NCBI GenBank assembly: GCA_017475935.1 | Contig: JAFVEP010000024.1 | Coordinates: forward strand, 1 to 56,155 | Direction of reading: 5' to 3' | Source: Alphaproteobacteria bacterium | Lineage (GTDB): Bacteria; Pseudomonadota; Alphaproteobacteria; RF32; CAG-239 | DNA: 56,155 nucleotides | Shown here: positions 1-56,155 of the stretch, in pieces | Layout of the letters: every line of letters starts with the position of its first letter | How positions within the stretch are numbered: the first letter of the stretch is position 1 | Made by a program: the position numbers and the translations under genes | Notes under the pieces: generated by a model | The model's input: the letters and a program-made list of their open reading frames with translations, nothing else | Databases searched by the model: none | Told to the model about the DNA's origin: nothing

Positions 1-240
1 CAAAAGGAAAAAGAAAAACAACAGGAAAAAGAACGCCAAAAACAAAAGGAAAAAGAAAAACAACAGGAAAAAGAACGCCAAAAACAAAAGGAAAAAGAAA
101 AACAACAGGAAAAAGAACGCCAAAAACAAAAGGAAAAAGAAAAACAACAGGAAAAAGAACGTCAAAAACAAAAGGAAAAAGAGAAGCAACAGGAAAAAGA
201 ACGTCAAAAACAAAAAGAAAAAAAGGCCGAAAAGTCAAAA
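1..240 (+). repeat. 42-nt in-frame tandem repeat, about 5.5 copies, near-perfect
   Basis: caaaaggaaaaagaaaaacaacaggaaaaagaacgccaaaaa recurs at 1, 43, 85, 127 and 169 with only c/t wobble changes. Confidence 0.9.
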
Positions 241-1260
241 GCTCCGGAAACAAACGAGGATACATTCGACTCGCGGCAAGACACGGACGTTGATGACTTT
301 TTGCTCAATAAGAATATTTTGCCTCAAACTTCGGAAACACAAGATTTTACATCTTTTTCCGCCTCTGATCCGGATGAAGAAGATCTTCCCGACGCTTTGC
401 CTGACTTATCTGACATAGAGGATGATATTCCTTTGCATGCGGATATGCATATACCAAGAGATGTTCCAACGCCAGAAGACAGCCGTTTTTCTAAAGCAGA
501 ACCAGTCGAAACGAAAGACGCACCGACAAAAGCGAAGGAAACCACTGTACCTCAACCGGCCAAAGCCCCAAAAATTAAGGCCTACGACGATGCTATGCTC
601 AAAATCAAAGAGGCTCTCGAATCAAATGAGACCGTTTCTCTGAATGATATGGATGACGCCGGTCCCGTTTCCTTAAGCAATGAAGACGACACCGATCTGG
701 CCGATGTATTTGAAACCGCAAGCGAAGACACAACCGATGTCATGGAAAATGCATCGCCTGATGTTGCGGAAAACCAATCCACTGATGAGGCGTTTGAACC
801 GGCCGACGAAGAACCGATCGCCGATAAAAACGACGATTGGGAATATGTTGATGAAAATGATAAAGCGATCACCGATGCAGACGGCGATTGGGAATATGTC
901 GATGAAAACGGTAATCCGATCACCGATGCAGACGGCGATTGGGAATATGTCGACGAAAACGGCAATCCGATCACCGATGCGGACGGCGATTGGAAATACG
1001 TCGATGACGATCAAAAAACAGCCGACATTGCCAATGCTTTCAACGAAACGTCTTCCGCAGAAGATCAACCTCTCGACGATGCTATCGGCAAGGCCTTCAA
1101 CGATCAACCGTTTGACGACGCGACAGATGATCTGGCCGATGCTTTTGCCGAATCCGCACCGCAATCGAATGAACCTGCGCAAGATGATGCGCTGGCTGAT
1201 GCCTTCGCTTCCGATTCGCCGGATCCTTTGGCGAGTGCTTTTGAGGATAAAAACACATAA
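1..1260 (+). CDS. 5'-truncated CDS continuing upstream of the window. Repeat-rich protein with K/E-rich 14-aa repeats followed by a strongly acidic C-terminal half
   Basis: Frame 1 is open from nt 1 to the TAA at 1258-1260, so the ORF-track TTG start at 301 is a window-edge artefact. nt 1-240 encode (QKEKEKQQEKERQK)n. 832-1011 encode DWEYVDENGNPITDADG repeats. Confidence 0.7.
   Translation, partial: QKEKEKQQEKERQKQKEKEKQQEKERQKQKEKEKQQEKERQKQKEKEKQQEKERQKQKEKEKQQEKERQKQKEKKAEKSKAPETNEDTFDSRQDTDVDDFLLNKNILPQTSETQDFTSFSASDPDEEDLPDALPDLSDIEDDIPLHADMHIPRDVPTPEDSRFSKAEPVETKDAPTKAKETTVPQPAKAPKIKAYDDAMLKIKEALESNETVSLNDMDDAGPVSLSNEDDTDLADVFETASEDTTDVMENASPDVAENQSTDEAFEPADEEPIADKNDDWEYVDENDKAITDADGDWEYVDENGNPITDADGDWEYVDENGNPITDADGDWKYVDDDQKTADIANAFNETSSAEDQPLDDAIGKAFNDQPFDDATDDLADAFAESAPQSNEPAQDDALADAFASDSPDPLASAFEDKNT
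832..1011 (+). repeat. 48-51-nt in-frame tandem repeat, about 3.5 copies, encoding an acidic 17-aa unit
   Basis: gacggcgattgggaatatgtcgatgaaaacgg(t/c)aatccgatcaccgatgc(a/g) is repeated at 880 and 931, with diverged copies at 832 and 982. Confidence 0.85.
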
Positions 1261-3889: not shown

Positions 3890-4078
3890 ATGGACAACAA
3901 CACAACAACCGTCAACGGGATTACCTACTGTAATTTCTGTTGCAAAGAGTTGCAAAACGGCGAAGAATGTGATTGCGCAGCCTCACAGCGTGCCGCTGAA
4001 AAAGCCAAGAAAAAGGCCGAGCGCGCCAAGTTAAACAAACATAATGAAACACCGCCGCGCCGTAAAACCTTGTGGTAA
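3890..4078 (+). CDS. small Cys-rich protein (62 aa) with a basic C-terminal tail
   Basis: Contains CNFCC...CDC followed by AEKAKKKAERAKLNK. Has its own promoter-like site and a strong terminator. No clear SD. Confidence 0.45.
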   Translation: MDNNTTTVNGITYCNFCCKELQNGEECDCAASQRAAEKAKKKAERAKLNKHNETPPRRKTLW

Positions 4079-4080
4079 TC

Positions 4081-4118
4081 AAAAGATCCTGCTCTTTTCG
4101 GGCAGGATCTTTTGTCTT
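4081..4118 (+). terminator. rho-independent terminator
   Basis: Perfect 11-bp stem AAAGATCCTGC/GCAGGATCTTT with a 9-nt loop, then TTTTGTCTTT. Confidence 0.8.
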
Positions 4119-4169
4119 TAAGTGTGTAATCAAAACATCTTCCCTTTCGCGACGCTGCGCTATAATCCT

Positions 4170-4239
4170 ATTTACTGTCATTTCTCGAAGTGCGCTGCGC
4201 GTCACTTCGTCAAGAAATCTCATCTTTGCGTAGCACTAT
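4170..4239 (+). repeat. 70-nt hairpin unit (type B), preceded by a partial tail-only unit at about 4134-4162
   Basis: Head tttactgtcat, then hairpin TTTCT/CGAAGTG/CGC-tgc-GCG/t/CACTTCG/tca/AGAAA, then tail tctcatctttgcgtagcactata. About 97% identical to 55938-56007. Confidence 0.8.
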
Positions 4240-4266
4240 ATTTTTTTAATTCGAAAATACCCTGAT

Positions 4267-4440
4267 CTCGTGTGTCCCATACTCGGAGGCATGACTTTTT
4301 ATTAATTGATAAAAAACACTTGACTTTTGCTGCGGGGGTAATGTGAAAAAAAATATTTTTAAACAGATAAAGTCACCCCTGTTTTTCGCTTTGAAAGCGA
4401 AAAATTGAAGGGGCTCCCGAATCTTAATGCAAAAGGAGAA
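4267..4440 (+). promoter_or_regulatory. conserved promoter/leader cassette, copy 1, upstream of a pilin-like ORF
   Basis: About 90% identical to 56031-56155. Contains TTGACT (4319-4324), G5 (4333-4337), TAATGT (4338-4343), a long leader hairpin at 4375-4412 (CCCC-tg-TTTTTCGCTTT-g-AAAGCGAAAAA-ttgaa-GGGG) and the RBS AAAGGAG at 4431-4437. Confidence 0.5.
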
Positions 4441-4445
4441 GTAAC

Positions 4446-4598
4446 ATGGGAACAAAAACAAACCAATCCGGTCGCAGTATGATTGAAATGCTGGGCGTCT
4501 TGGCCATCATTGGCGTTCTGTCAGTGGGAGGCATCGCCGGCTATTCCAAAGCAAAGGCGTCATTCTTAAATTCAGATAAATTCATATCATCTTTTTAA
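4446..4598 (+). pseudogene. truncated type IV pilin-like gene (50 codons: class III signal plus N-terminal helix only)
   Basis: Encodes MGTKTNQSGRSMIEMLGVLAIIGVLSVGGIAGYSKAKASFLNSDKFISSF*. The first 36 codons match the 47438 pilin at 34/36 residues. Homology stops after GYSKA and a stop follows 13 codons later. Below the ORF-track cutoff. Confidence 0.55.
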
Positions 4599-4662
4599 CA
4601 AATATTAATATTTTTGTTTCATACTCTGACACAGAAGTAACATTTTCAAAGCAGAGGTTTTT

Positions 4663-4977
4663 ATGGAAACAACGAATAAAGATTTAGTCATCGAGCAAAA
4701 GCATGAAGGAACAAAGTTAACATGTACTCTTTCGGGGTGGTTGGATCCGAACACATCGCCGAAATTAATTGAACAAATCGATCTGGCGGAGATTAAGGAA
4801 CTTGTTTTTGACATGAAAAATGTCGAATATGTTTTTTCGGCCGGTTTACGTGCATTCATGATTTTTCAAAGAATAATGGATGCACAGAACGGAACGATCA
4901 AATTAATTAACGTATCCGATCAAGTCAGATCTATTTTTGAATACACCGGTTTTGAAAGCCTTTTAGAACCTAAATAA
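4663..4977 (+). CDS. STAS-domain anti-sigma-factor antagonist (SpoIIAA/RsbV-like)
   Basis: 104 aa. Contains VEYVFSAGLRAFMIF...IKLINVSDQVRSIFEYTGF, typical of the STAS fold with a phosphorylatable Ser. Confidence 0.8.
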   Translation: METTNKDLVIEQKHEGTKLTCTLSGWLDPNTSPKLIEQIDLAEIKELVFDMKNVEYVFSAGLRAFMIFQRIMDAQNGTIKLINVSDQVRSIFEYTGFESLLEPK

Positions 4978-4982
4978 CGAAC

Positions 4983-7319
4983 ATGCTCAAATCTTGGTTT
5001 CGCAAACACTCCCTGAATTTCAAGTTAAATATAAGCATTTTAACTTGCGTTTGCTTAGGCTTTTTTGGCCTCATAACTTTTATTTCGCAATATGCCGAAC
5101 CGATTATTCAATCTCAAAGTGAACACAACGCCAAACAGACCGTTGATTCATATATTGCCGATATAACCTTTTTGGTTTCGGACACAGAGCGAATTGTTCT
5201 TAACACCAAGAACACTCTTGACCAACTGTCCAGCACGGATATGGAATCATTATTGGTCGTTTTGAATTCAGCCATCAAGACCGGCAGCAATTCAACTCTG
5301 ACTTTCACGAATGCTTGGGTTTACATTTTCCAGCCAAACAATGTCATCAAAGGCAATTTATATATCAGCACGAAGGAAAATGGCGAAACTTATTTCAAAT
5401 CAGAAAAGGTGAGCAATTTTTATGATCGTTTTCCGTGGTTTAAGGAAGTTCCCAAAAAAGAAAAAATCTACTGGTCTGAGCCATACAAAGATAAGACTTC
5501 CGGTCAGGTTGTCGTCACCTGTTTGGTTCCGTTTAAATTTAAGGATACTGGCGATTTCAGCGGATTAGTTGCCCTAACCGTTGACTTAAGCCGTATACAA
5601 GAAAGCATCAATCATTTTTCGTATTATAAATCCGGAAAACTTTTGCTCTTATCGCGAACCGGATTATATGTCACGCATCCGAATCCAAACATCGCACTTA
5701 AAAAAACAATTTTCGATCTGGCTGATGAACTCAATCTCGATCAACTGGCCTATGTCGGCATGGAGCTTGCCAAAGGTAAATCGGGACAGATTGAAATAGA
5801 TCACTCCTCCGTTATCAGCGGACAAGCAATATTTTTCTATGCGCCGATCAAAAAACTCGGTTGGGGATTTTGTCTTGTTTATTCAAAAAAGGAATTTTTA
5901 CGGCCGATTCATCATTTCCAAATCATTGTTTTATTAGCCTTTTGCGCCGGCGCTGTTTTGCTGTTTTTCCTGATCAGCCACATCTGCCGCAAGTCAACCG
6001 ATCAACTTCTTACGCTAAGCTCCTTAGCAACCCAATATGGCAACGGCGATTTTACGGAAAATTTCAAGGATAACCCGTCTTCATCGGATATAAACGTTAT
6101 TGCCAATGCCCTAACCAGCATGAAGGAAAATTTGCTCAATTACATCGAGAAGGAAAGAAAAACAGCTTCCGATCAGCAAAGAAACGAAAGTGAACTTGAA
6201 ATTGCGCACAGCATACAGAAATCCGCCTTGTCGGAACAATATCCGCAGCACGAAGCTTTCGATATTTCAACTTTAATGATACCGGCCAAACAAATCGGCG
6301 GCGATTTTTACGATTTCTTTTTCATCAATGAAAATCGATTTGCCTTTGTTATTGCAGATGTTTCAGGAAAAGGCATTCCGGCCGCATTGTTCATGATGAA
6401 AGCGCAAACGCTGATTAAAAATGCCTGCAAAAACAACCGCGATCTGGCGAGTGCCATTCACTTAGCCAACAACGAGCTGTGCGAAGGCAACGAATCGTGC
6501 ATGTTTGTCACGGCATTCATCGCCGTTGTCGATCTGATCAGCGGTAATATGAACTTTGTCAATGCCGGACACACCATTCCGCTTTTTTATACAAATGATA
6601 AATATCGTTTCCTCAACCCGCAAAAAAATATTGTACTGGGTGCTAAAGAAAATGCTGAATTTGTGGCCGAAAAAATTTCACTTACTTCCGGAGATCGTGT
6701 GTTTATATACACAGACGGCGTGACCGAAGCCGAAAACGAAGAATCCGATTTTTATGGCGAAAAAAGATTGGAACACGTATTGCAAAAAATATCTTCTTCG
6801 CCGACTCGCAATTTGCATAACGTTCTGCAAGACATTAAAAAATTCACCAAAACCGCACCGCAATCAGACGATATTGCCATGCTTGAATTTGTTTACAACG
6901 GCTTCAAAACGGGCTCTATTGTCTTTGCCGCCGATTTAAAAAATCTGGCCGGTATGATTAACTTCTTAAAAGGTGAAATGAACAAGCACAACCTTTCGGA
7001 AGCAGCGCAATTTGCCATGATCAGCGCCGCCGAGGAAATATTCAGCAACATTGCTCTTTATGCCTACAAATCGGAGGAAAACGGCACCATCAAAATCAAA
7101 ACTTTCACCAAAGATGATAAATTTTATGCCTCATTCTCCGACAGCGGAAAACCATATAATCCGCTGGCTAAAAAAGATCCGGATATTAAGCAGGATATCA
7201 AAAAGCGCGAAGTCGGCGGTTTAGGCGTATTTTTAGCCAAAAAACTGACCGATGACATATCCTACAGCTACAAAAAGGGATTAAACATCCTAACCATCGG
7301 TATTTCTTTACATAAATAG
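4983..7319 (+). CDS. membrane sensor (Cache-like periplasmic domain and HAMP) fused to a PP2C/SpoIIE phosphatase and a C-terminal RsbW-like HATPase kinase domain
   Basis: Two TM helices flank a region of about 280 aa. PP2C motifs GGDFYDFF, FVIADVSGKG, YTDGVTEA and DDIAML. C-terminal EEIFSNIALYAY...GGLGVFLAKKLTDDISY. Confidence 0.8.
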   Translation: MLKSWFRKHSLNFKLNISILTCVCLGFFGLITFISQYAEPIIQSQSEHNAKQTVDSYIADITFLVSDTERIVLNTKNTLDQLSSTDMESLLVVLNSAIKTGSNSTLTFTNAWVYIFQPNNVIKGNLYISTKENGETYFKSEKVSNFYDRFPWFKEVPKKEKIYWSEPYKDKTSGQVVVTCLVPFKFKDTGDFSGLVALTVDLSRIQESINHFSYYKSGKLLLLSRTGLYVTHPNPNIALKKTIFDLADELNLDQLAYVGMELAKGKSGQIEIDHSSVISGQAIFFYAPIKKLGWGFCLVYSKKEFLRPIHHFQIIVLLAFCAGAVLLFFLISHICRKSTDQLLTLSSLATQYGNGDFTENFKDNPSSSDINVIANALTSMKENLLNYIEKERKTASDQQRNESELEIAHSIQKSALSEQYPQHEAFDISTLMIPAKQIGGDFYDFFFINENRFAFVIADVSGKGIPAALFMMKAQTLIKNACKNNRDLASAIHLANNELCEGNESCMFVTAFIAVVDLISGNMNFVNAGHTIPLFYTNDKYRFLNPQKNIVLGAKENAEFVAEKISLTSGDRVFIYTDGVTEAENEESDFYGEKRLEHVLQKISSSPTRNLHNVLQDIKKFTKTAPQSDDIAMLEFVYNGFKTGSIVFAADLKNLAGMINFLKGEMNKHNLSEAAQFAMISAAEEIFSNIALYAYKSEENGTIKIKTFTKDDKFYASFSDSGKPYNPLAKKDPDIKQDIKKREVGGLGVFLAKKLTDDISYSYKKGLNILTIGISLHK

Positions 7320-7329
7320 ATTGATAAAA

Positions 7330-8466
7330 TCAATCGTCAAAATCTTCGTCATCGGAAGTTGATAGAACCGACATGCATAAAATAATCCCGAAGCTGGCCA
7401 TCAGCGAAAACATAACCGTTCCGCCGTACGAAATAAGCGGCAGCGGCACACCGACAACCGGAAGCAGACCCATAACCATCGCAATGTTGATGAAAACATA
7501 TAAAAAATAGTTCGTATTCAGGCCGATAATCACCAACTTAGCGAAATAATTTTTTGCTCGGTAGGCAAAGACATATCCAAACGCAATGACCAAAATATTG
7601 AGCAGCAAAAGTGATAACCCGCCGATCAGTCCGAACTCTTCGGAAAACATCGTAAAAATGAAGTCCGTATGCTTTTCCGGCAAAAAATTAAGATGCGTCT
7701 GCGTGCCATGCAAAAAGCCTTTTCCCCATAATCCACCGGAACCGAACGCAATTTTCGATTGAATAATGTGATACCCTGCCCCAAGCGGATCCCGCTCCGG
7801 ATCCAAAAAAGTCAAAACTCGGTTTTTTTGATATTCATGCAAAAAATTCCAGATCAGAGGCAGTAAAGCACCCCCTGCAACCGCTACAACGGCAAACTTC
7901 CACCATTGCACGCCGATGGCAAACAGAATAATCGTTGCCGTCAAAAGCAACATAGTCGCTGTTCCCAAATCCGGTTCCAAAATAATGAGCGCAACGGGAA
8001 TCAGCACTAAAATCGCCGGAATAATAATGCCGCGAAAAGATTGAATCACCTGCAGCGATGTCGAGCTGAAATAGCGCGCCAAAAAAAGCACCAAGCCGAT
8101 TTTCATCAACTCTGACGGCTGTATTTTGAAAAAGCCGAGATCAATCCAACGCTGCGCCCCCATGCCGACATGCCCGCCAACTTCAACAGCCACCAAAAGA
8201 AGCAAGGTAACGGCATAAAAAACATAGGAAAATTTGTAATAATTTTTAACATCAATCATCGCTAACCCAAGCATTAACAGCAGAGAAAGCCCAAAACGAC
8301 TAATGTGGCGAAAAGCCCAAGGACTCCAACTTCCGTTGGCCGCAGAATACAACGTTGTCGTACCGATAACGGCCAACAGCACAATCAAAAAAATATAAGA
8401 AAAACTCAAGCGGAAAAATTTATCGCGCCAGGTTAATTTTTGTTTTGCAAATTCCAACTCGTGCAT
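7330..8466 (-). CDS. rodA: SEDS-family peptidoglycan glycosyltransferase RodA
   Basis: 378 aa polytopic FtsW/RodA/SpoVE-like protein, immediately downstream of mrdA in the mre operon. Confidence 0.9.
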   Translation of the reverse strand: MHELEFAKQKLTWRDKFFRLSFSYIFLIVLLAVIGTTTLYSAANGSWSPWAFRHISRFGLSLLLMLGLAMIDVKNYYKFSYVFYAVTLLLLVAVEVGGHVGMGAQRWIDLGFFKIQPSELMKIGLVLFLARYFSSTSLQVIQSFRGIIIPAILVLIPVALIILEPDLGTATMLLLTATIILFAIGVQWWKFAVVAVAGGALLPLIWNFLHEYQKNRVLTFLDPERDPLGAGYHIIQSKIAFGSGGLWGKGFLHGTQTHLNFLPEKHTDFIFTMFSEEFGLIGGLSLLLLNILVIAFGYVFAYRAKNYFAKLVIIGLNTNYFLYVFINIAMVMGLLPVVGVPLPLISYGGTVMFSLMASFGIILCMSVLSTSDDEDFDD

Positions 8467-30410: not shown

Positions 30411-30484
30411 ATCCGACTTTTAACCAAAACTTAAAGTTTCACAGTTACAATCATGCCGAGAGGATGTATAAGAAAGGTCGTATT

Positions 30485-33400
30485 ATGTCTGAAAATACGC
30501 TATTTACCAAGGTTGTGTGCGTGGCAACGGCATGTTGTTTTGCACAGTCGGTTATGCCTAAAATTGCTTACGGACGCGGATTGGATCCTGTTTCTTTCAG
30601 CAGAATGTATGCCGTCGCGCAAAGCGGCGACGTTGAGGGTTTACGCGCCTCAGTCTATCGCGGCATGAACATCGATGCGGTCAATGCCCGCGGCGATACC
30701 GGACTTTGTGTTGCGGCCAGAAATCGCGATTCTTATACATACAATGCTTTTCGGGCGGCCGGCGCAAATCCGCGTCACCCGTGCGTACAGAATATTAAAG
30801 GTTATGAAGATTTCGTCGAATCATCAAACGCTGTTCCGGTAACGGCCACACCGCGTGATGCGTACGGCACTCTCGGCAAGGAAGAATATAAAATTTCTTC
30901 TTGGGTATGGTGGGGACTCGGCGGATTAATCGTCACCGGCATTGCTTTGGGGCTGGCCTTTTCCTGCGGCGGTGGCGGCGGTGGCGGCGGCGATTCAGGC
31001 GGCAGTGGTAGCGGCGAAAGCTACAACAGCTTAGGCGCATACGCCGGTAAAAGCGGAAAAGTCCGCAAATCAACATCCGGCACAGCCACCAACACTTCAT
31101 CCATCACATGGGAAAACTCCAAAACAGACAAGATAACTGCCATTAATTTAAACAACAATGTTTTGAGTAACACGCAGTATTTAGATGTCATTTTGAATGC
31201 CAAAAAAGGCGGCAAATATACGAATGAGCAGAACAAAATTTTAAAAGCCGGCGCCGGAACGGTTGCCATGAACGCGGTTAAAAACAGTCAGACATCTAAC
31301 GAAGGCTACATTAATATTGACTCATACAATGCGTCCATCGGCATGATCGCCAGCGAATTATCAACCGCTGTAAATAACGGCCGCGGCATCATTGACGGCA
31401 GCGATACAAACGGTATTGATATCAATTTTTCCGGTTATAAAAAAGACAATGTTGTTATCGGCATGTATGCGGATACAAGTTCAACACTGACCAACAACGG
31501 TGACATCAAAGGATCAGCCGTTAAAGCAACAGCTGACCCGTCATCTCAGCAAAACACCAACAATGAAACAGGGTTGGTTTCTAACTTAACCGACGGAACT
31601 TCATCGTCAGCATCAACCTCCAGCAAGGGTACTCTTGTCGGCATGGAAGCCATGCTGATCAATGTCGGCACCGATTTAAGCAACAAATATGTCACTCTGA
31701 TCAATAACACCGGCGGCAAAATCAATTTAAGCGCCGGTGACGGCGGCACGGAAACCGAGGTCACTGTTTCCATGATCGGCATGGGAAGCTGGCTGGATTA
31801 TAATTTTATGAACAGCTCACAAAACATCAATCGGGCCGAAAACGTACAGATTATTAACAAAGGTGACATTTCTTTAAGTTACACCGGTTCTTACAGCACC
31901 CCATCGACAACGGATTTACGTAAGGGCTTAGGCGGCGTTGTCGGCATGCGCGGAGATGCGCGCACAAGTGTATTAAACTATGCAGATGCCCGCATCAGCA
32001 TCACACTTGATGATTACACGGCAAAATCCGACAACAATTCATCAAGTTCGCAAGCACAAAGCGGCACCGAAGTTGCGGCCGGCATGCAATCCGTTCATGG
32101 CGCCAATTTAACCAACAACGGCACGATTTCCATCATCACGCCTTCGTCAAACAACCGCATCAGTTACGGACTTCTTTCTGTTGAAGGATCGGGAACCGTT
32201 TCAGGACTTTACACCAATTTGAATCAAAAGCTGATCAATAACGGCAACATTCAAATGGAGGTCAGCAACAGCTACGGCATGGCTTCGTACAACGGCGGCA
32301 CACTAAGCAACATTGGAACAATCACCATGGGCCGCGCCGGCACAACAACCTTATACGGTAAAAACGTAGCCATGTACGGTTCCGGTTCAAGTCAGGAAAC
32401 GACCATGGAAAACACCGGCACCATTAATTTACATTCATATAAATCAACGGCCATGCAGAACGATTATCCGGGCGGCACCGTCATGTATAACAAAGGCATC
32501 ATCAACATTGAGCGCAGTGCGACAGACTCGTATGTTTTCGGCGGCGCATACAGTGAAGCGCACAACAGCAAGACCATCAACTATTATGCGACAGCCTCAA
32601 ATGAAGGATCATCCGGTTCAGAAAGCTCTGCCATTGGTACGGATGATGCACCTTTTGCCAACATCAAAACGCCTGTCGGTATTTCGGCTGTCAGCACAAA
32701 AGCGCAAACCGCCGACGGCAAAGAGAATTCCGACGGTTCTAAAACCGAGAAAATATATAACGATCAGGGCGCATCAATTTTACTCAGCGGCGCGGCATAT
32801 GTTTCTGCCCTGTCGGTTGAAACCGCACAAGGCCGTGCCGAAAACAACGGCACTATCACCATTCAGGACAGCGATGTTAAAAACGCCGTCGATTCGGTCG
32901 GTATGTACATGGACGCCAGCACAATTTCGAGCGCTCGTATCACCAATGGTGCGAACGGAGTGATCAAAACCAACTCTAGATTTTCCAAGGCAATGATGAG
33001 CCTTTCACCGGCAATTTCAGCCATGGTCAACAACGGAAAGATCGAAGCCAATGCCGAATATTCGTTCGGTATGTTTGCCGATGGCAAAAGTTTAGTCAAC
33101 AACACCTCCACCGGTCAAATCCAGCTTAACAACAATAACAGTGCTGCCATTTATGTCAAAGGGGCGTCAACAATCAACAACGACGGAACTTTAAATGTCG
33201 GACAGCGTGCGCAAGGCTTAATGAACAGCTACGGTATTTATTTGGATGGTGATGCCGCCGAAGCAACCAACAGCGGTATCATCAATGTTTATGCCGACAA
33301 AAAACGAAACACGAATGTTACGGCGGCAATTCTCTTAAACAAGAATGCGACGGTTAAAAACAAAAATATGATCCATGTCAATTCCGGCGGCGCTTATGGT

Positions 33401-36400
33401 ATTTATGCAAAAGCGGGCGAAGGCAGTTCCATCATCAACGAAACAGAAGGAAGTATCGTTGTCGGAACCAGAACCACCTCTGTCAGTGACAGTTACGCTA
33501 TTTATGCCGCAGAAGGCGCAAATGCCTCCATTACCAACAACGGAACAATCACTTTGAATAACAATGGCAAGGCCTATGCTATTTATGCTTTAGGTGAATC
33601 TTCCGTAATTAACAACGGCATCATCAATCTCGAAAATGACAACGGAACGGCTATTTCCGTTGCCAACGGCACAGCCAGCAATAAGAACACCTTAAACCTC
33701 TTGCACAATAACAATGTCGGGCTGGAATTAAACGGAGAAGGTGAAATTATTAACGAAGAAGGATCTGTCATTAATGTCGGCAACGCTTCAAGCTTCAATG
33801 TTTCAAACATCAGTCAAGGCAATGCGGCGATGAGTAACACGGCCGAAGCCAAAGGAACCATCACCAACAAGGGTGAAATTGTCATCGACAACAAGAACAG
33901 CAGCAGCGACAACACCGGAATCAGAGTTATTGAATCGGCTGACAGCGACTCCGAAGGCGGCGAATCTTCATCAGTGACCGTCAACAACAACGGCGTTCTG
34001 CGCGCACTGACCGGCTACACAACAGCCATTACAGCCGGAAAAAACACAACAGTCAACAATGACGGAACCATCACCATTCTGGCGAACAGTTACGGCATCA
34101 AAAGTATTGGTGAAACAGGCAGCTTTACGTTTACGAACCACAACAACGGCATCATTAATGTCAACGGCAACAATAGCAAGGGTGTTTATGCCGAAAACGG
34201 CACAATTAACAATTACGGCAAAATTTTAGTCGGCAATTACACAGGCAGCAATGGCATTGAAACTTACGGCAAAGTTTCCGGCATCAACAACTACGGCACA
34301 ATAAAAGTTACCGGCAACAGCTCCAACGGTATTTATGTTTATCCGGTCGGCGGCCAGACTTTAACCATAGCCAACGGCGCCGGAGCAGTCTTAGAGGGTG
34401 GTTTTGCTTCCGTCAATGCCAAAAATGTCGGCGCCGTCACCATCACCAACGACGGTAAAATCCGCAATGCACAATACGGCATTTACGCCACTGAAGGTGC
34501 TTCTGAATTAACCATTACCAACAACGATGAGCTGAGCGGCACCATCGCCGCCATTTATGCGGAAACAAACACAAGCGTCGACATCAAGAATATTGGTACA
34601 ATTACCAATGGTATTTATCTTGTTCCGAAGCGTGACGGTGTTAAAATCAGTATAACAAACACCGGCACCATCACCGGCAGCGCTTTAACGAAAAATTACG
34701 GCATTTATATCAATAACAGCGGTTTTACGCCAAGTGAAGAAAGCGGCTATTATTTTGAAGATAAAGATCTCGGCGGTGCGACATGTACCACGGCGCAAGG
34801 CGTACAATGGTGTTATAAGAAAAAAGAAGGCGGAGACGGAGAACAAGGCGGAGGCGGAGAACAAGGCGGAGGCGGAGAACAAGGCGGAGGCGGAGAACAA
34901 GGCGGAGGCGGAGAACAAGATCCTTATACCAACAGCAAAACTGTCAATGTTCCGGAAAATAAAATAGGATTTTCTTTTACCAATGGCAACGATTTCACAT
35001 TTACCAACAGTAAAGACACCGGTGTGATAAACATTATCGGCGCCAATGCCAAGGGGGTTTATGCCACCAGCGGCACAATCAACAACAAAGGAAAAATCAC
35101 CATCGGCAATTATGCTGACAGCTATGGCATTTACGCCGAGGGCAATGTCAAAGCCATCAACAACACAGGCAGCATCACGGTCAACAATGCGGCTTCCAGT
35201 GCAATTTACGCCGCACCGATCGGCGGTTCATCCATTGCTATCACTAATGGCGTCGGCGGCATTTTGAGCGGCGGTTTTGCCTCCATCAATGCCAACAATG
35301 TCGGTGCCGTTAACATCACCAACAGCGGTACAATTTCCGGCGCCAAATACGGCATTTATTCAACGCAAGGTGCTTCGCCTTTAACCATTATCAATAATAA
35401 TGCTTTGGGCGGCACGATTGCCGGCATTTATGCCGAATCGAACTCTAACATTAATATTACCAATTTAAGTACCATCACCAACGGCATTTTCCTTGTTCCA
35501 AAGACCGAAAATGTCGGGATTACGATTAATAATAGCGGCACAATCACCAACAACACCGGCAAGGTTGAAATCAATGGTCAGCTGATACTTGATAGCCAAA
35601 ACTACGGCATTTACATCTATCAGTCGGACTTCAACCGCGCATATACATTTGATAACCTCGGCGGAGCGACTTGGGGCACCAACCGCTTTGAGCCGGATGA
35701 TCCGTCAATTGTGGCCGATCTCAGCAACAACGAAAAGGTTATCGTTGCTAAAAAGGCATCTGAAAATCCTAAACATTTAGCATCTCCTGGATTCCAGATT
35801 CTCGAAAACAGGATATTTATTAATGATAGCAATGGCCATATTGCTTTCGCCCCAAATTCGGATAGCGATAGGCTATATGGAATAAATGCTTTAATGGGAA
35901 CAATTATTAACAGAGGAGTAATTGATGCTCAGTGTCCAATCGGTAATTGTTGGGCTATATCTGGTGGACGGCACATAAGCTCTATTAAAAACTATGGCAC
36001 AATTAAGGGAGAGATTGTACTACGTGATCTTGAATCAGATGCCACTTTAGTGAATGGGAAAAACGGCAATATAGTAAGTGACACATTCGCAATTAATGCA
36101 AAAAACGGTTCAAAATTAACCATTCTTAATGACGGAATAATAAGCAAAACGGAACATGCTACCAGTGAATCTTCTGTCTCATATTATGCTATCGATACAT
36201 ATGGCATTTCACAAGTAACAATTAAAAATAATTCTAAAATCACCTCATCAAGTGCCACAACTATCCATGCACGAGAGGTTAATGACATTGAGATTTATAA
36301 CACCGGTACTATTGAAAGCCCCGATACAGATTTTGTTGAGGCCATATATATTGAAGCAAACAATAGTATCAAGATTACCAATACTGGAAGCATCATCGGT

Positions 36401-39400
36401 GGTATTTACCTTGTTCCGAAGAACACAAGCACAACGATTGATTTATATAACTCAGGTACTATGTCCGGTGGACCTAGAAGGCATGAGGCTAACATTTACA
36501 TTGCTCCGGATGGCTTTACGAAAGAATACACCTTCACCAACTTAGGCTCGGCCACATGCGGCCCATCGGGAACATGCATCGTCCAAGCCCCTGAACCGGA
36601 AGAAACCGATACCGGTACAGGTACGGGCACAGGCACAGGTACGGGTACAGGAACTGGTACGGGTACAGGTACAAGCGGCGACAATACCGGCTCATTTGAT
36701 CCGTATGATTCTAGTATCGTCGCAAGTGAAACGAATAATGAGGATATAAGAGTAGATAGCATACAAGATGACGGCACAGCATTCTCAACAAATGCAATAG
36801 TCAATGGGATTGAAATTACGGGCAAAAGTAATTCTTTTGTTTTCGAAAATAAAGGTAAGATTACTGTGCAGAGAAGTTCTAGCCACGGCATAATTGCCGA
36901 CAGCGGCACAATCATTAACCTTGGTACGATTCAATTGGATGGTAGCTATGCAGATCAATTCGATCCGAATTATGAGAGTGGAAAGGCCAATTACCGAAAA
37001 GATCTCAAAGGTATCTTAGGTCGCGAAGATGTAAAAGCGATTAAAAATTACGGAACAATTAATATTGAGGGTAATCCGCAAGGGCATAATTATGGAATCA
37101 CAGCCTCTCAACTGAACTCTCCTTTCGTCATAACCAACGGTGTCGGCGGTAGCATTGCAGGTCCTGCCCAAAGCTCTATTTATGTAACTGATACGGGTTA
37201 CCCCGTAACAGTTAATAATGACGGCACAATCAGTGGCGCCAAAGAATATGGTATTTATGTTGCAACAACTTCAGATATAAATATTAACAACAGCGGTACA
37301 TTAGAGGGAACTGTTGCTGCAATTTATGCCGCAACAAATAAGAATATAAGCCTCACCAATACCGGAACGATAACAAATGGTGTTTATCTTTATATGGGCA
37401 GTGAAGATGCCACTATTCAAATTCACAACACCGGTACGATCACAGGTAGCGCCAAAACACATAATGTTGGAATTTATATCGACCATGCATATGAAAAAGA
37501 TTATGGCATTACATCTGCAGACTTGGGAGGTGCTTCTTGTTTAACTTCCAATGGTAAATGCATCTCTGATACAGGTACTGAACAAGGCGGAGGCACCGAC
37601 ACAACCCTTGAGCCAAGTACTGGCCCATTCGTCGCTCCGGATGATCCGTCGATTGTGGCCGATCAAAGCAATTCAGCAACAGTGTCACTTAACTACGCCA
37701 AAGATAAGGGATTTACCATTCAAAATCAAGATAACAGCTATGTATTCATTAATGAAGAAACCGGTATAATCAACGTTAATAAAAACGAATCAGCTATTGC
37801 TGCAGATAGCGGTACAATCATTAACCGCGGACAAATTAACGTAGCTGCTGGTGTTGGTATAGGTATTGATGTCAGTAAAAATATTCGAGCTATTAAAAAT
37901 TATGGCACAATTCAAGCCAGAGAAGGCACTGCTATTTCAGCAGGGAATTTGACCTCAGATCTGACTGTTTCCAACGGTTTCAATGGAGTCATAGAAGGTG
38001 AAGAAAAACCAGTTTATATAAACAATACATCGAATGCTGTTTCTTTGACGGTTCTCAATGATGGTCAAATTCGCAGTAAGGGATATGCCATTTATGCCAT
38101 CAACGATAACGGCTTAATCACAATTAAGAACCATGGAACAATTATCGGTGACAGCGACAACACAGGAAACTATACAGCTGTCTATGCACGATCCGCTGTA
38201 GGCTTTAACATTACCAATAGCGGAACCATTACTAATGGTATTTATCTCTTTCCTAAAAGCGAAAATGCCACGATTAACATCAAAAATACCGGAACCATCA
38301 CCGGCAATGCAAAAACACAAAATTTTGGAATTTACATAATGAATTCGTCTATAGTCCCAGAACTCAGACCATATTACAACCTCACAAGCGCGGACTTAGG
38401 TTCAGCGACATGTTCGACCGCACAAGGTTCCGAATATTGCGGTTCCGCCCCTGTGGGAAACAACAATGTCGGCACTTCATCCTTTACGAAGAAAATGTAT
38501 ACGCTGAAAATTTTGAACACGGGAACCATCGCCAACAGCGGTGAAATGAACTTCGGCGATGATCAAGATCCGAATATTTCCGTCGGCGCCGGCGGTCAAT
38601 ATCAGGCCGATTCGTTTACCGGAACGGTAGGCGCTGATTCCAGCATTGTCGAAAGCGGATTCGATACCACCTATGTCAATGAAAATTCATTCGTCGGTAC
38701 CGATAAAGGCATTGTCGTCAAATCAAAATCCTACATGTTCAACGCCGACAAACAGGCGAACGCAAACGGCAATACCGACGTTGTCATGACCATGAAATCC
38801 ATAGACAGTGTCGTTGATGATCAGAAAATTGCCGGCTATTTGACACAAAACTATGAAAACCAAAAAGGCGAAGTCCTGTTTGCCTCTTTAAAATCGGCCG
38901 CCACAAAGAAAGCTTTCGCACAAAACTTGAACCGCGATCTCGGCTTCAACATGATACCGAACTTAATCAAGCAAAATACGGACACCGAAAAGGTCATTCA
39001 TCGCGAAATCACCGACGCACTTTTTGCCTCCGATCGTGATGGTGCGCATATCAAAATGCTGACCTATCAACGTCGCGCCGGAACAAAAAGCGGAGCTTTG
39101 GGATACAAAGACAAAGTCAGCGGCGCTTTCGGATTTTATCAGCACACCTTATCGAATGGCATCCGCACAGCGCTCGGATTCGACATTTATCGTGCCGTCA
39201 GCAGTTATAACGATGACTCTTCACGTTATCACAACGCTGCCGAAATCTTTGCTCCGATCATGCTCGGATCGCGTGAAAATGCGCTGATGTTCAAGCCGAA
39301 AGCCGGATTTACCCGCGGACATTATCGCCGCAGAAGTGCTTATGACGCCCATAAAGCGCGCACAAAGGAATACTATTACGGTGCCGATACGCAGTTCGAA

Positions 39401-55757: not shown

Positions 55758-55815
55758 TGACAAGCCCCTTTTCACGTTGAAAGCGAAAAATTCAAAGTCT
55801 TCCGAATCTTTTAGT
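55758..55815 (+). repeat. degenerate, gene-less remnant of the 3' part of the leader cassette
   Basis: gccccttttcacgttgaaagcgaaaaattcaaagtcttccgaatctt parallels 4374-4424 but is not followed by an RBS or pilin ORF. Confidence 0.45.
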
Positions 55816-55860
55816 AACAAAGCCATTTCTGCCCCTATACGCCGTGTCCGTGTGTCTTTT

Positions 55861-55930
55861 TTTATTGTCATCGCTCGCACGGCACGCCGTGTCCGTGCGT
55901 CCAGCGATCTCATCTTTGCGCAGCACTATA
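55861..55930 (+). repeat. 70-nt hairpin unit (type A)
   Basis: Head tttattgtcat, then hairpin TCGCT/CGCACGG/CAC-gcc-GTG/t/CCGTGCG/tcc/AGCGA, then tail tctcatctttgcgcagcactata. Confidence 0.85.
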
Positions 55931-55937
55931 CATCTAT

Positions 55938-56007
55938 TTTACTGTCATTTCTCGAAGTGCGCTACGCGTCACTTCGTCAAGAAATCTCATCTTTGCGCAG
56001 CACTATA
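55938..56007 (+). repeat. 70-nt hairpin unit (type B')
   Basis: Same head and tail as type A. Hairpin TTTCT/CGAAGTG/CGC-tac-GCG/t/CACTTCG/tca/AGAAA. 7-nt spacer catctat after unit A. Confidence 0.85.
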
Positions 56008-56030
56008 TCTGAATATTGAAGATGCCCCAA

Positions 56031-56155
56031 CCTCGTGTGTTCCACACTCGGAGGCATGATTTTTTATTAATTTATAAAAAAAGACTTGACTTTTGCTGCG
56101 GGGGGGTAATGTGAAAAAAAATATTTTTAAACGGGTAAAGTCACCCCTATTTTTC
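56031..56155 (+). promoter_or_regulatory. conserved promoter/leader cassette, copy 2, cut by the window end
   Basis: About 90% identical to 4267-4386. TTGACT (56086-56091), G7 (56100-56106), TAATGT (56107-56112). Ends inside the leader hairpin, so the driven gene lies beyond the window. Confidence 0.5.

What the first reader, a model, noticed from the sequence alone, without database searches (positions are those of the whole stretch)
4134..4239. Same hairpin unit recurs 52 kb away in the same position relative to a pilin-type promoter cassette
Unit B at 4170-4239 is about 97% identical to 55938-56007. It differs in one loop base and one tail base.

It is preceded by a tail-only fragment (catcttccctttcgcgacgctgcgctata, 4134-4162). 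That fragment begins right after the terminator of the small Cys-rich ORF.

At both loci the order is hairpin unit(s), then about 25 nt of unrelated sequence, then the conserved promoter/leader cassette, then a pilin-like start. This fixed synteny suggests the units are functionally tied to the cassette rather than randomly dispersed. Possible roles are insulator, recombination site, or a processing or regulatory RNA.
Basis: seen in the sequence. Interest (0 to 1): 0.65.

Follow-up and report, generated by a model that had tools for sequence, protein, structure and literature searches.

The report
Palindromic repeat element beside pilin promoters
The recurring hairpin is one arm of a small, apparently undescribed, mobile-looking palindromic repeat found in gut and rumen Alphaproteobacteria; in this genome it sits upstream of pilin genes most likely because it was copied along with them, not because it is a dedicated pilin control element.

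Summary
A 64-nt unit recurs at 4177-4240, 55867-55930 and 55944-56007. It consists of GTC, a bulged 16-bp hairpin, and the tail CTNAYCTTTGCGNAGCRCTATA. Types A and B share the fold but differ at six base pairs.

The unit is not part of the pilin promoter. It is the left arm of a 130-190 bp mosaic palindromic element.

The family occurs in at least 10-16 related rumen and gut alphaproteobacterial MAGs. There it is intergenic, in every orientation, and about 30 exact-pattern copies lie away from pilin genes. One orthologous site is empty in one genome and filled in others, with a 9-10 bp flanking direct repeat. This is MITE-like behaviour.

Covariation is strong: 97% of cells paired, 11 of 16 pairs doubly changed, almost no G-U.

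In this genome all seven unit sites adjoin pilin genes, and six of nine cassette promoters carry the element. All six share one identical junction, which indicates a single insertion copied during pilin-family expansion.

Verdict: new member of a known kind, moderate interest.

The parts
4136..4176 (+). Degenerate half-unit (5' arm plus loop) fused to a tail end (GCGCTATA), followed by the linker TCCTATTTACT.
   Evidence: Alignment with half-units and a tail-to-unit junction at other loci of the same genome. Sequence.
4177..4240 (+). Unit B, the left-arm module. GTC, then a hairpin (6 bp, TCA bulge, 7 bp, 3-bp cap), then the tail CTCATCTTTGCGTAGCACTATA.
   Evidence: Covariance model 90.2 bits. 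Fold -12.8 kcal/mol, z -4.1. Repeat family D11.
4253..4295 (+). Right arm of the composite element: GAAAATACCCTGATC, a degenerate hairpin, then GAGGCATGAC. It is an inverted, tail-less, decayed copy of the unit design.
   Evidence: Conserved flanks shared with the right arms of relatives. Its own fold is not significant (z -1.3).
4320..4344 (+). Promoter-like core of the pilin cassette, adjacent to but not part of the repeat: TTGACT, TTTGCTGC, G5, TAATGT.
   Evidence: Read. G-tract lengths. Not called by the sigma-70 consensus scan because the spacer is 13-15 nt.
4376..4413 (+). Leader hairpin: CCCCT...AGGGG enclosing the palindrome TTTTCGCTTTGAAAGCGAAAA. It is conserved in all cassette copies.
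   Evidence: Fold -14.5 kcal/mol, z -3.05. Copies listed.
4446..4598 (+). Truncated type IVb prepilin ORF (50 aa). Homology to full-length paralogues ends at 4552.
   Evidence: ORF list. N_methyl motif. Repeat D14 to 47438-47544.
55762..55825 (+). Promoter-less remnant of a cassette leader (CCCCTTTTCACGTTGAAAGCGAAAAATTCAAAG...), lying upstream of the units.
   Evidence: Fuzzy match to the leader with 2 mismatches. Sequence.
55838..55866 (+). Half-unit remnant (ACGCCGTGTCCGTGTGTC) plus the T7ATT run that precedes unit A.
   Evidence: Alignment A4. Sequence.
55867..55930 (+). Unit A. Same architecture as unit B, with six base pairs changed on both sides.
   Evidence: Covariance model 82 bits. 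Fold -16.3 kcal/mol, z -4.2, with a dot-bracket identical to unit B.
55944..56007 (+). Unit B', 97% identical to 4177-4240.
   Evidence: Covariance model 88.1 bits. Repeat family D11.
56018..56060 (+). Right arm of the composite element: GAAGATGCCCCAACC, a degenerate hairpin, then GAGGCATGAT. It is followed by T6ATT.
   Evidence: A weak covariance-model hit on the minus strand at 56004-56060 (9.4 bits, E = 3).
56086..56112 (+). Promoter-like core of the second pilin cassette: TTGACT, TTTGCTGC, G7, TAATGT. The pilin start lies beyond the window end.
   Evidence: Sequence. Continuation on L001:18647-18780. G-tract count.

Best explanation
The 64-nt hairpin unit is the left-arm module of a small, non-coding, mosaic palindromic repeat element. 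The element resembles MITEs, REP/BIME and RPEs and belongs to a clade of uncultured rumen and gut Alphaproteobacteria.

**Anatomy of a complete element**
- One or more left units: GTC, a bulged 16-bp hairpin, CTNAYCTTT, a GCGNAGC mini-hairpin motif, then RCTATA.
- A 10-40 nt spacer.
- An inverted, tail-less copy of the same hairpin design, ending in ...GAGGNATGAC.
- The ends are therefore inverted repeats: GTCATNCCTC and GAGGNATGAC.

**Shown**
- The hairpin is maintained by compensatory changes that are almost purely Watson-Crick.
- The element is dispersed in intergenic DNA of many related genomes, in every orientation.
- It is present or absent at an orthologous site, with a 9-10 bp direct repeat of the target T tract.
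- In one genome it even lies in frame inside prepilin leader peptides.

**Inferred**
- It is, or was, mobilised in trans as DNA. The hairpins and their conserved unpaired bases would serve as recognition features.
- In this genome one copy inserted into the T-rich DNA just upstream of a pilin promoter.
- It was then copied with the block (element, promoter, leader, pilin 5' end) as the type IVb pilin family expanded by duplication and unequal recombination.
- The left-arm units were later duplicated, exchanged (types A, B, C) and truncated into half-units.

The position of the units next to pilin promoters is thus inheritance of a duplicated block, not a dedicated regulatory link.
For: **Structure**
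- Units A and B fold identically although they differ at six pairs.
- Across 31 distinct units, 97.4% of cells are paired, 11 of 16 pairs change on both sides, and only 3 cells show a one-sided change such as G-U. None of 500 shuffles reached these values, and slid-partner controls gave 27-47% pairing.

**Composite architecture**
- In relatives the same covariance model hits the opposite strand, with the inverted unit starting about 22-32 nt after the left unit ends, at 47-58 bits.
- 31 of 49 pattern-matched tails are followed by a right arm ending in GAGGNATGAC. Most of those without one are chance matches in unrelated taxa or copies cut by a contig end.
- Window positions 4253-4295 and 56018-56060 carry the same flanks.

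**Dispersal**
- The gapped pattern finds the unit, always with 42-nt spacing, in 10 MAGs and in rumen metagenomes.
- The covariance model adds about six more genomes.
- Copies are intergenic in convergent, divergent and tandem contexts.
- None of about 30 lies within 1.5 kb of a pilin start. Only L048 has pilins within 8 kb.

**Mobility**
- L145 is an empty orthologous site. L158 and L144 are filled; L144 carries two tandem copies.
- The insertion sits in a terminator T tract and is flanked by the direct repeat GGATTTTTTT.
- RGIG4773 pilin leaders are empty (11 aa), partly filled (39 aa) or fully filled (55-56 aa, in frame).
- The element persists at an orthologous site in genomes whose flanking protein is 81-95% identical, with an in-place compensatory change in L020: CGCGGTA paired with TACCGCG.

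**Co-duplication in this genome**
- The right junction GGCATGAYTTTTTATTAATTKATAAAAAA...CTTGA is essentially the same in all six element-bearing cassettes, with point differences only.
- Three cassette promoters lack the element.
- Footprints of rearrangement are present: a truncated pilin, a leader remnant and half-units.
Against: - No transposase or autonomous parent element with the same ends was found. The RAYT search was negative in 1.1 Mb of loci, but this is a small sample of each genome.
- The target-site-duplication inference rests on one orthologous locus in three genomes.
- Copy number per MAG by exact pattern is low (1-6). A recent burst is therefore not shown, and MAGs under-assemble repeats.
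- In this genome every sampled unit is at a pilin locus.
- Diverged copies also adjoin pilin genes in several other genomes: L048, L131, L120, L083, L117 and the RGIG4773 leaders. Some real affinity between the element and pilin loci is not excluded.
- No copy-number difference was seen between samples at either window locus, so current activity is unproven.
- The right arms in the window are decayed and do not fold significantly.
Confidence: 0.68

Rival explanations
1. The units act in cis as a transcriptional insulator or terminator, or as an mRNA 3' stabiliser, between the upstream gene and the pilin promoter. This would be a co-opted REP-like role. Hairpins plus T runs would stop read-through into the pilin gene or protect the upstream transcript.
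For: - In this genome, half-units and the right arm are each followed by T5-7ATT.
- The simple terminator scan flags one half-unit plus T run, L001:19572-19584.
- In the tandem pilin arrays of L001 and L004 (L001:19499-19864, L004:10609-10995), no other strong terminator lies between one pilin and the next promoter.
- REP, Correia and ERIC elements are known to affect termination and mRNA stability (PMC10969869).
Against: - The full unit is not followed by a T run.
- The right-arm hairpins of the window are not more stable than shuffles (z -1.3 and -1.5).
- At locus 1 a strong terminator already precedes the units.
- At locus 2 the upstream gene is divergent, so there is nothing to terminate (gene list).
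- Covariation is almost free of G-U pairs, and the fold is equally good on both strands.
- In relatives the flanks are A-rich rather than T-rich, and orientation relative to genes is random.
- Three cassette promoters do without the units.
Confidence: 0.15
2. The units are recognition sites of a dedicated recombination system that shuffles, duplicates or switches pilin genes. This would be analogous to integron attC, shufflons or pilE/pilS, and would give surface variation.
For: - Units flank pilin genes on both sides in arrays: L001, L004, L011 and L131.
- The design (structure conserved, sequence variable, a conserved 3-nt bulge) recalls folded attC sites.
- Rearrangement footprints are present: a truncated pilin at 4446-4598 and a leader remnant at 55762-55825.
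- The pilin family is hugely expanded.
- Elements recur at pilin loci of several species at different positions.
Against: - No recombinase or integrase gene lies in the window or beside the arrays.
- There is no GTTRRRY-type core.
- Each pilin has its own promoter, so there is no single expression site.
- Loci are identical between samples, with no inversions or cassette swaps.
- About 30 exact-pattern copies in other genomes are unrelated to pilin genes.
- Ordinary homologous recombination between repeats explains the footprints.
Confidence: 0.08
3. The unit is a structured RNA, either a small RNA or a cis-regulatory or processing element of the pilin transcript.
For: - The secondary structure is strongly conserved with covariation.
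- Its position upstream of a gene is fixed in this genome.
Against: - No Rfam family matches at gathering or at E <= 1.
- The unit lies upstream of the promoter-like core, not in the leader.
- Only 3 of 496 cells show one-sided changes such as G-U.
- Inverted copies occur side by side.
- Orientation relative to genes is random in relatives.
- The element can be translated in frame inside ORFs.
Confidence: 0.05

Closest known systems
REP / BIME / REPIN elements (with RAYT transposases) of Enterobacteria and Pseudomonas
   Same: - Short imperfect palindromes with conserved flanking bases.
- Arranged as inverted doublets with a spacer, and as more complex mosaics.
- Intergenic.
- Persist at orthologous sites.
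- Structure kept while sequence varies (PMC3116915, PMC3337134).
   Different: - The two arms of a doublet usually carry different stems. The element therefore does not form one long REPIN hairpin, and the covariation at positions 6 and 40 supports local hairpins.
- A long conserved non-palindromic tail is present on one arm only.
- A TSD-like direct repeat is present; HUH/RAYT transposition makes none.
- No RAYT homologue was found in 1.1 Mb.
- Copy number appears low.
Bacterial MITEs such as Correia (CREE/NEMIS), ERIC and pneumococcal BOX elements
   Same: - 100-200 bp, non-coding, with terminal inverted repeats.
- Insertion into A/T-rich intergenic DNA close to promoters and terminators.
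- Present or absent between related genomes, with a flanking direct repeat.
- Modular build with a variable number of internal units, like boxA-(boxB)n-boxC (BOX comparison from my own knowledge; MITE features from PMC10969869).
   Different: - No sequence similarity is claimed or was tested.
- Each end is itself a covarying bulged hairpin, not just a transposase-binding inverted repeat.
- No parent insertion sequence is known.
- The duplication is 9-10 bp of a T tract, not the TA of Correia elements.
Rickettsia palindromic elements (RPE)
   Same: - Found in Alphaproteobacteria.
- About 100-150 bp palindromic elements found in intergenic DNA and inserted in frame in protein-coding genes (PMC10969869).
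- Here a 135-nt composite is read through as 45 extra residues of prepilin leader peptides in MAG RGIG4773.
   Different: - The host clade is different: free-living gut and rumen bacteria.
- In-frame copies were seen only in the cleavable pilin leader, not in metabolic enzymes.
- Homology to RPE families was not tested because no RPE sequences were on hand.
- The window copies are intergenic.
Integron attC sites
   Same: - Folded single-strand hairpins.
- Structure, with extrahelical bases, is conserved while sequence is not.
- Placed between genes of an array.
   Different: - No R/L boxes or GTTRRRY core.
- No integrase nearby.
- The genes carry their own promoters.
- The units also occur singly at unrelated loci.

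Membership tests
REP/REPIN (RAYT-mobilised) | Short imperfect palindrome with conserved flanking nucleotides | tested here: met
   A 16-bp bulged hairpin with invariant GTC at the 5' side, a TCA bulge and ATCT at the 3' side. 97.4% of cells are paired across 31 units.
REP/REPIN (RAYT-mobilised) | [quoted passage not shown] | tested here: met
   In relatives the covariance model hits the opposite strand, with the inverted unit starting about 22-32 nt after the left unit ends. A right arm follows 31 of 49 pattern-matched tails. In the window the right arm is decayed (9.4 bits).
REP/REPIN (RAYT-mobilised) | The two REPs of a doublet belong to the same group and are complementary, so the whole element forms one long hairpin | tested here: not met
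   Left and right stems differ, for example L020 CGCGGTA versus CAACCTG. The variable base N pairs within its own arm (pair 6-40 covaries: UA 14, CG 9, GC 5), not across arms.
REP/REPIN (RAYT-mobilised) | A RAYT (HUH-Y1) gene in the genome, typically flanked by the repeats | tested here: inconclusive
   phmmer with E. coli RayT found nothing at E <= 10 in six-frame ORFs of 1.1 Mb of unit-centred and pilin-centred loci. Whole genomes were not searchable.
REP/REPIN (RAYT-mobilised) | No target-site duplication (single-strand HUH mechanism) | tested here: not met
   The filled sites L158 and L144 are flanked by the direct repeat GGATTTTTTT. The empty orthologous site L145 has one copy. This rests on one locus only.
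MITE (generic) | Small (under about 300 bp), non-coding, with terminal inverted repeats | tested here: met
   The composite is 118-150 nt and the full insertion about 190 nt. The ends are GTCATNCCTC and GAGGNATGAC.
MITE (generic) | Presence/absence polymorphism at orthologous sites, with a target-site duplication | tested here: met
   L145 is empty; L143, L144 and L158 are filled. A 9-10 bp direct repeat flanks the insertion. Paralogous pilin leaders are empty, partly filled or fully filled, but no duplication is visible there.
MITE (generic) | A related autonomous insertion sequence with the same inverted repeats supplying the transposase | not tested
   No such element was seen in the loci held. 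An IS30-like transposase C-terminus abuts one element (L004:19660-19803), but shared ends were not shown.
Rickettsia palindromic elements | Palindromic element of about 100-150 bp that can sit in frame inside ORFs | tested here: met
   Prepilin leaders of RGIG4773 read through the full 135-nt composite...IKSHPSQSLAKANASRDLQINFNQAEDALTIPAESRHD.... This was not seen in the window itself.
Rickettsia palindromic elements | Sequence homology to one of the RPE families | not tested
Integron attC | R''/L''-L'/R' boxes with a GTTRRRY core, and an adjacent intI integrase | tested here: not met
   No such core appears in the unit consensus. No integrase Pfam hit is recorded among the called genes across most of the window (about 13-56 kb) or for the ORFs flanking locus 1.
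Rho-independent terminator | A GC-rich hairpin immediately followed by a U run | tested here: not met
   The unit hairpin is followed by CTCATCTTTGCG. The scan called no terminator at the units. Only half-units and right arms are followed by T runs in this genome.
Known RNA families (Rfam 15) | Match to a curated covariance model | tested here: not met
   No hits at gathering threshold in the window. Only sub-threshold chance hits appeared in 4050-4700.

The most novel reading that the evidence does not exclude
The element family has a real, selected affinity for type IVb pilin loci. Its hairpin arms would serve as recombination or priming sites that drive duplication, exchange and 5'-end remodelling of pilin genes, including in-frame remodelling of the cleavable leader peptide. 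On this reading it is part of the machinery that generates the very large pilin repertoires of these gut Alphaproteobacteria, rather than a passenger.
Probability: 0.12. Interest if true: 0.72.

Novelty: new member of a known kind. Interest (0 to 1): 0.4.

Why it matters
**For annotation.** The hairpin and the first 43 nt of the "promoter cassette" are repeat-element DNA. They should not be modelled as pilin regulatory sequence.

**For biology.**
- This adds an apparently undescribed mosaic palindromic element family in an uncultured gut and rumen alphaproteobacterial clade. It was not found in Rfam or in the few literature searches run here.
- The covariation is unusually clean and almost purely Watson-Crick.
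- One orthologous site gives an empty-versus-filled comparison.
- In one genome the element is read through in frame inside prepilin leader peptides, which is RPE-like behaviour outside Rickettsia.
- It shows how a passenger repeat can be amplified by expansion of a surface-protein gene family. The repeats are also plausible substrates for the unequal recombination that reshapes pilin arrays.

**For assembly.** The repeat and the conserved pilin 5' ends are where Logan and MAG contigs break.

Tried and rejected
- **Exact tail searches.** The exact 22-nt and 20-nt tail patterns found nothing in the genome and JGI metagenome collections. Relaxing two positions and adding the GTCAT anchor found the family.
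- **Rfam.** No match at gathering threshold, and only chance hits at E <= 1.
- **tRNA/tmRNA.** None in the window.
- **RAYT/HUH partner.** No homologue in 0.45 Mb, and later in 1.1 Mb, of loci.
- **Small ORFs next to units in other genomes.** No Pfam family in 8 of 10, and no shared family among 46 neighbours, so there is no candidate partner protein.
- **Strain variation in unit number or G-tract length.** None. L058, L001 and L002 differ from the window only by a few substitutions outside the units, plus one linker SNP.
- **One long REPIN-type hairpin or four-way fold of the whole element.** The fold is predicted thermodynamically but is not supported by covariation.
- **Long-range pairing of ATCTNAYCTTTG with CAAAGRTNAGAT.** The variable positions do not covary when alignment A2 is read by eye.
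- **A cryptic sigma-70 promoter formed by TTGTCA and TATAxx if the hairpin extrudes.** Dropped, because unit C and most relatives lack TTGTCA.
- **Sigma-54 or standard sigma-70 reading of the cassette promoter.** The consensus scan does not call it. The promoter assignment stays an inference.
Full report
**1. Observation**

- The window contains three copies of a unit of about 70 nt: 4171-4241, 55861-55931 and 55938-56008.
- The two B copies differ at one loop base and one tail base. Copy A is 75% identical to B.
- The 22-nt tail CTCATCTTTGCGYAGCACTATA occurs three times in the window and never in 100 shuffles.
- A covariance model built later and run without filters finds only these three units in 56 kb (82-90 bits). 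The next hit scores 15.5 bits.
- As single strands, A and B give the same dot-bracket structure: 6 bp, a 3-nt 3' bulge, 7 bp and a 3-bp cap. The z-scores range from -3.2 to -4.2, and the structure forms on either strand. They differ at six base pairs, all changed on both sides.
- The 'tail-only fragment' (really 4136-4164) is a hybrid.
  - Its first two-thirds aligns with 'half-units' (5' arm plus loop) that precede full units elsewhere in this genome.
  - Only its end, GCGCTATA plus the linker TCCTATTTACT, matches a tail-to-next-unit junction.
  - It follows a strong terminator of the small Cys-rich ORF at 4080-4114 (-23.7 kcal/mol).

**2. The surroundings in this organism**

- The downstream gene is a type IVb prepilin. 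A full-length paralogue at 47438-48052 matches the Bundlin and PilS Pfam families.
- The gene at 4446-4598 is a 50-aa truncated copy.
- Contigs from two ENA samples overlap the window at 99.8-99.9% identity and extend it.
- Other contigs from the same samples carry further paralogues, named in NCBI as 'Alphaproteobacteria bacterium' with locus tags IJ852_.
- In about 96 kb of this genome I found seven unit sites:
  - window locus 1;
  - window locus 2;
  - L001:19555-19712;
  - L004:9700-9845, directly after a tRNA-like sequence that I identified by eye and did not scan;
  - L004:10680-10843;
  - L004:19360-19662;
  - L011:6775-7066, which carries a third stem type, C.
- All seven sites adjoin pilin genes.
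- Three promoters of the same cassette type have no unit: L009:8001, L011:5152 and L011:5974. Their similarity to the other cassettes begins only at ATAAAAAAGACTTGA.
- The pilin at 47438 has a different upstream region altogether.
- The six element-bearing cassettes share essentially one junction, GGCATGAYTTTTTATTAATTKATAAAAAA...CTTGA, with point differences only.

**3. The unit belongs to a wider family**

- Exact tail patterns found nothing in the public collections.
- The gapped pattern GTCATN{38,46}CTTTGCGNAGCNCTATA found the unit in 10 rumen or gut alphaproteobacterial MAGs and in JGI rumen metagenomes. The spacing was always exactly 42 nt.
- Most matches with other spacings, plus two 64-nt matches (L014, L054), fall in unrelated taxa or lack the hairpin and are chance.
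- Thirty-one distinct units align without gaps.
- For the 16-pair structure:
  - 97.4% of cells pair;
  - 11 of 16 pairs have changes on both sides;
  - only 3 of 496 cells show a one-sided change such as G-U;
  - none of 500 shuffles reaches these values;
  - slid-partner controls give 27-47% pairing.
- The invariance of the tail is partly forced by my search pattern. Model hits with variant tails exist in L131, L083 and L120.
- A few discrete stem types recur across species and co-occur within genomes: CGAAGTG, CGCACGG, CGCGGTG and CGAGGTG.
- The tail motif GCGNAGC fits the consensus of the very stable GNA-triloop DNA mini-hairpin d(GCGAAGC). This comparison is from my own knowledge, not a test.
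- Together with the near absence of G-U pairs and the equal folding of both strands, this points to a DNA-level structure rather than an RNA-level one.

**4. Composite architecture**

- In relatives the unit is followed by an inverted copy of the same hairpin design: ATNCCT-TGA-stem-loop-stem-AGGNAT-GAC. It starts 10-41 nt after the tail.
- The model hits it on the opposite strand at 47-58 bits.
- The element therefore has inverted ends, GTCATNCCTC and GAGGNATGAC.
- There are two right-arm subtypes:
  - a long one that includes an extra small hairpin and AAAGAYGAGAT;
  - a short one of the form GAAGATGCCTTGAC-stem-GAGGCATGAC.
- Window positions 4253-4295 and 56018-56060 are the short type with decayed stems: GAAAATACCCTGATC...GAGGCATGAC and GAAGATGCCCCAACC...GAGGCATGAT.
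- Thermodynamic folding of whole elements predicts a four-way structure closed by the two ends.
- The variable base N pairs within its own arm (pair 6-40 covaries), and left and right stems differ. The conserved structure is two independent hairpins, like a BIME, not one REPIN hairpin.

**5. Distribution and mobility**

- About 30 non-redundant exact-pattern units in other genomes are intergenic. They occur in convergent, divergent and tandem contexts in either orientation.
- None lies within 1.5 kb of a pilin N-terminal motif. Only one locus, L048, has pilin homologues within 8 kb.
- Orthologues of a 474-aa gene next to one unit were fetched from 62 genomes.
  - The element is downstream of it in L143, L144 and L158.
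  - It is partly present in L146 and L147.
  - It is absent in L145 and the rest.
- Reading the sequences:
  - L145 has ...AAGCGGATTTTTT|CGTTTGACTCC...
  - L158 has about 190 nt inserted at that point, flanked by GGATTTTTTT on both sides.
  - L144 has two composites in tandem there, each ending in GATTTTTTT. One of them carries a foreign insertion of about 135 nt in a hairpin loop.
- This is insertion into a terminator T tract with a duplication of 9-10 bp. It argues for a MITE-like, probably DDE-type, mechanism. RAYT/HUH transposition makes no duplication.
- No RayT homologue was found in 1.1 Mb of loci.
- The element also persists at this orthologous site in genomes whose flanking protein is 81-95% identical. 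L020 shows an in-place compensatory change.

**6. Relation to pilins elsewhere**

- The pilin family is enormous. There are more than 7,900 database hits, at least 583 stretches in species-representative genomes, and about 30 of the 80 loci kept come from MAG RGIG4773 alone.
- Among the 80 pilin loci, strong units lie within 1.5 kb in L131 (both sides of the gene), L120 and L083. Weaker ones occur in L117.
- In RGIG4773 the composite lies in frame inside the prepilin leader peptide.
  - Empty paralogues read MRNFEIKNES|GRSM, an 11-residue leader.
  - Partial insertions give 39-residue leaders.
  - Full insertions give 55-56-residue leaders...IKSHPSQSLAKANASRDLQINFNQAEDALTIPAESRHD....
- This is the behaviour described for Rickettsia palindromic elements (PMC10969869).
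- L048 has two diverged composites, one between and one after two pilin genes.
- Pilin loci therefore acquire these elements repeatedly, at different positions.
- Given how many pilin genes these genomes hold, and the unbiased result of 0 in 30 starting from units, I read this as opportunity plus amplification by gene duplication. A real affinity is not excluded (see the novel case).

**7. Mechanism and verdict**

- Best explanation (confidence about 0.68): a MITE/REP/RPE-like mosaic palindromic element. One copy inserted just upstream of a pilin promoter and was then copied with the block (promoter, leader, pilin 5' end). Its left-arm units were later duplicated, exchanged and truncated.
- Shown here:
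  - the structure and its covariation;
  - the composite architecture;
  - dispersal across genomes;
  - the empty-versus-filled site;
  - the shared junction.
- Inferred:
  - mobilisation in trans;
  - hairpin recognition at the DNA level;
  - the order of events.
- Rivals:
  - a co-opted terminator or insulator role (0.15);
  - a dedicated pilin recombination system (0.08);
  - a structured RNA (0.05).
- Samples show no variation at either locus, so current activity is unproven.

**8. Novelty**

- There is no Rfam match.
- The few literature searches run here were aimed at comparison families (REPIN/RAYT, intergenic mosaic elements, RPE) and turned up no description of this element.
- The kind (small palindromic interspersed repeats) is well known. 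The family, its clean Watson-Crick covariation, its modular left arm and its in-frame occurrence in pilin leaders appear new.
- I rate it a new member of a known kind, with interest about 0.4.

Noticed in passing
window 4334-4338 and 56100-56106; L004:9870-9890: A homopolymeric G tract lies between the TTGACT and TAATGT hexamers of the pilin cassette promoter. Its length is 5, 7 or 9 G in different paralogues, and it changes the spacer length. This could be a phase-variation tract. The same locus has the same length in different samples.
   Followed up: partly
window 4446-4598 (and 4663-7319): The pilin ORF behind locus 1 is truncated to 50 aa, and homology ends at 4552. It sits 65 nt upstream of a STAS anti-sigma-antagonist gene and a Cache-SpoIIE-HATPase phosphatase/kinase gene. 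A pilin promoter and leader may therefore now drive a partner-switching module.
   Followed up: no
window 55762-55825: A promoter-less remnant of a cassette leader, including the palindrome, lies upstream of the units. It sits between them and the divergent ankyrin-repeat gene, and is a footprint of a deleted pilin cassette.
   Followed up: partly
window 4376-4413 and all cassette copies (e.g. L001:18706-18745): A conserved leader hairpin, CCCCT...AGGGG, encloses the perfect palindrome TTTTCGCTTTGAAAGCGAAAA. Variants TTGCAAAG and TTTGAAAG occur. It could be an operator or a 5'-UTR structure; its function is unknown.
   Followed up: no
L098:1345-1515, L132, L133, L070 (full); L074, L096 (partial); L075, L078 (empty): In MAG RGIG4773 the whole composite repeat element of about 135 nt is read through in frame as 45 extra residues of the prepilin leader peptide. 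This is RPE-like insertion into a coding region that is cleaved off.
   Followed up: yes
L001:18777-18915, L004:10995-11175, L011:5974-6100 and 7219-7444, L066, L076, L090, L109, L110: A second insertable module lengthens some prepilin leaders to 50-130 residues: ...ECGAEAPTFLSAVYNKRYTSEKVASRYKQS..., with small DNA hairpins. In 1.1 Mb of loci it was found only inside pilin leaders, in several species.
   Followed up: partly
loci L062-L141; Type IVb (Bundlin/PilS-type) pilin genes are extremely expanded in uncultured gut and rumen Alphaproteobacteria. There are more than 7,900 database relatives and at least 583 stretches in species-representative genomes. About 30 of the 80 best loci kept come from one MAG, RGIG4773.
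   Followed up: partly
L004:19660-19803 (minus strand): The C-terminus of an IS30-like transposase (...INNRPMKVLNWNTPCQLF) abuts the right end of one composite element exactly where the pilin promoter would be. This looks like an insertion sequence that landed next to the repeat. The contig ends there.
   Followed up: no
L144:4025-4165 (also L013): An unrelated sequence of about 135 nt is inserted in the loop of one hairpin unit. This recalls insertion sequences that target REP loops.
   Followed up: no
L006:3700-3950, L007:3720-3975: Pilin genes of MAG RGIG4773 have a leader of about 230 nt downstream of a TTGACT...TATGAT-type promoter. The leader ends in a terminator-like hairpin plus a T run just before the ribosome-binding site. 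This is a possible attenuator or riboswitch-like leader.
   Followed up: no
window 1-300, 814-1007, 30464-39832: Other repeats are present. There is an 18/24/42-nt AAG/CAA-rich tandem array at the window start. A 51-nt coding repeat (DADGDWEYVDENG) lies in an acidic protein. A 3,122-aa ORF contains internal repeats of about 870-980 nt and a GGEQ tandem.
   Followed up: no
L059, L060, L061 (Logan contigs) versus window 4512-4550: Independent assemblies of this region all break inside the conserved pilin N-terminal coding sequence. The pilin 5' block and its repeats fragment assemblies, so repeat counts in MAGs are underestimates.
   Followed up: partly
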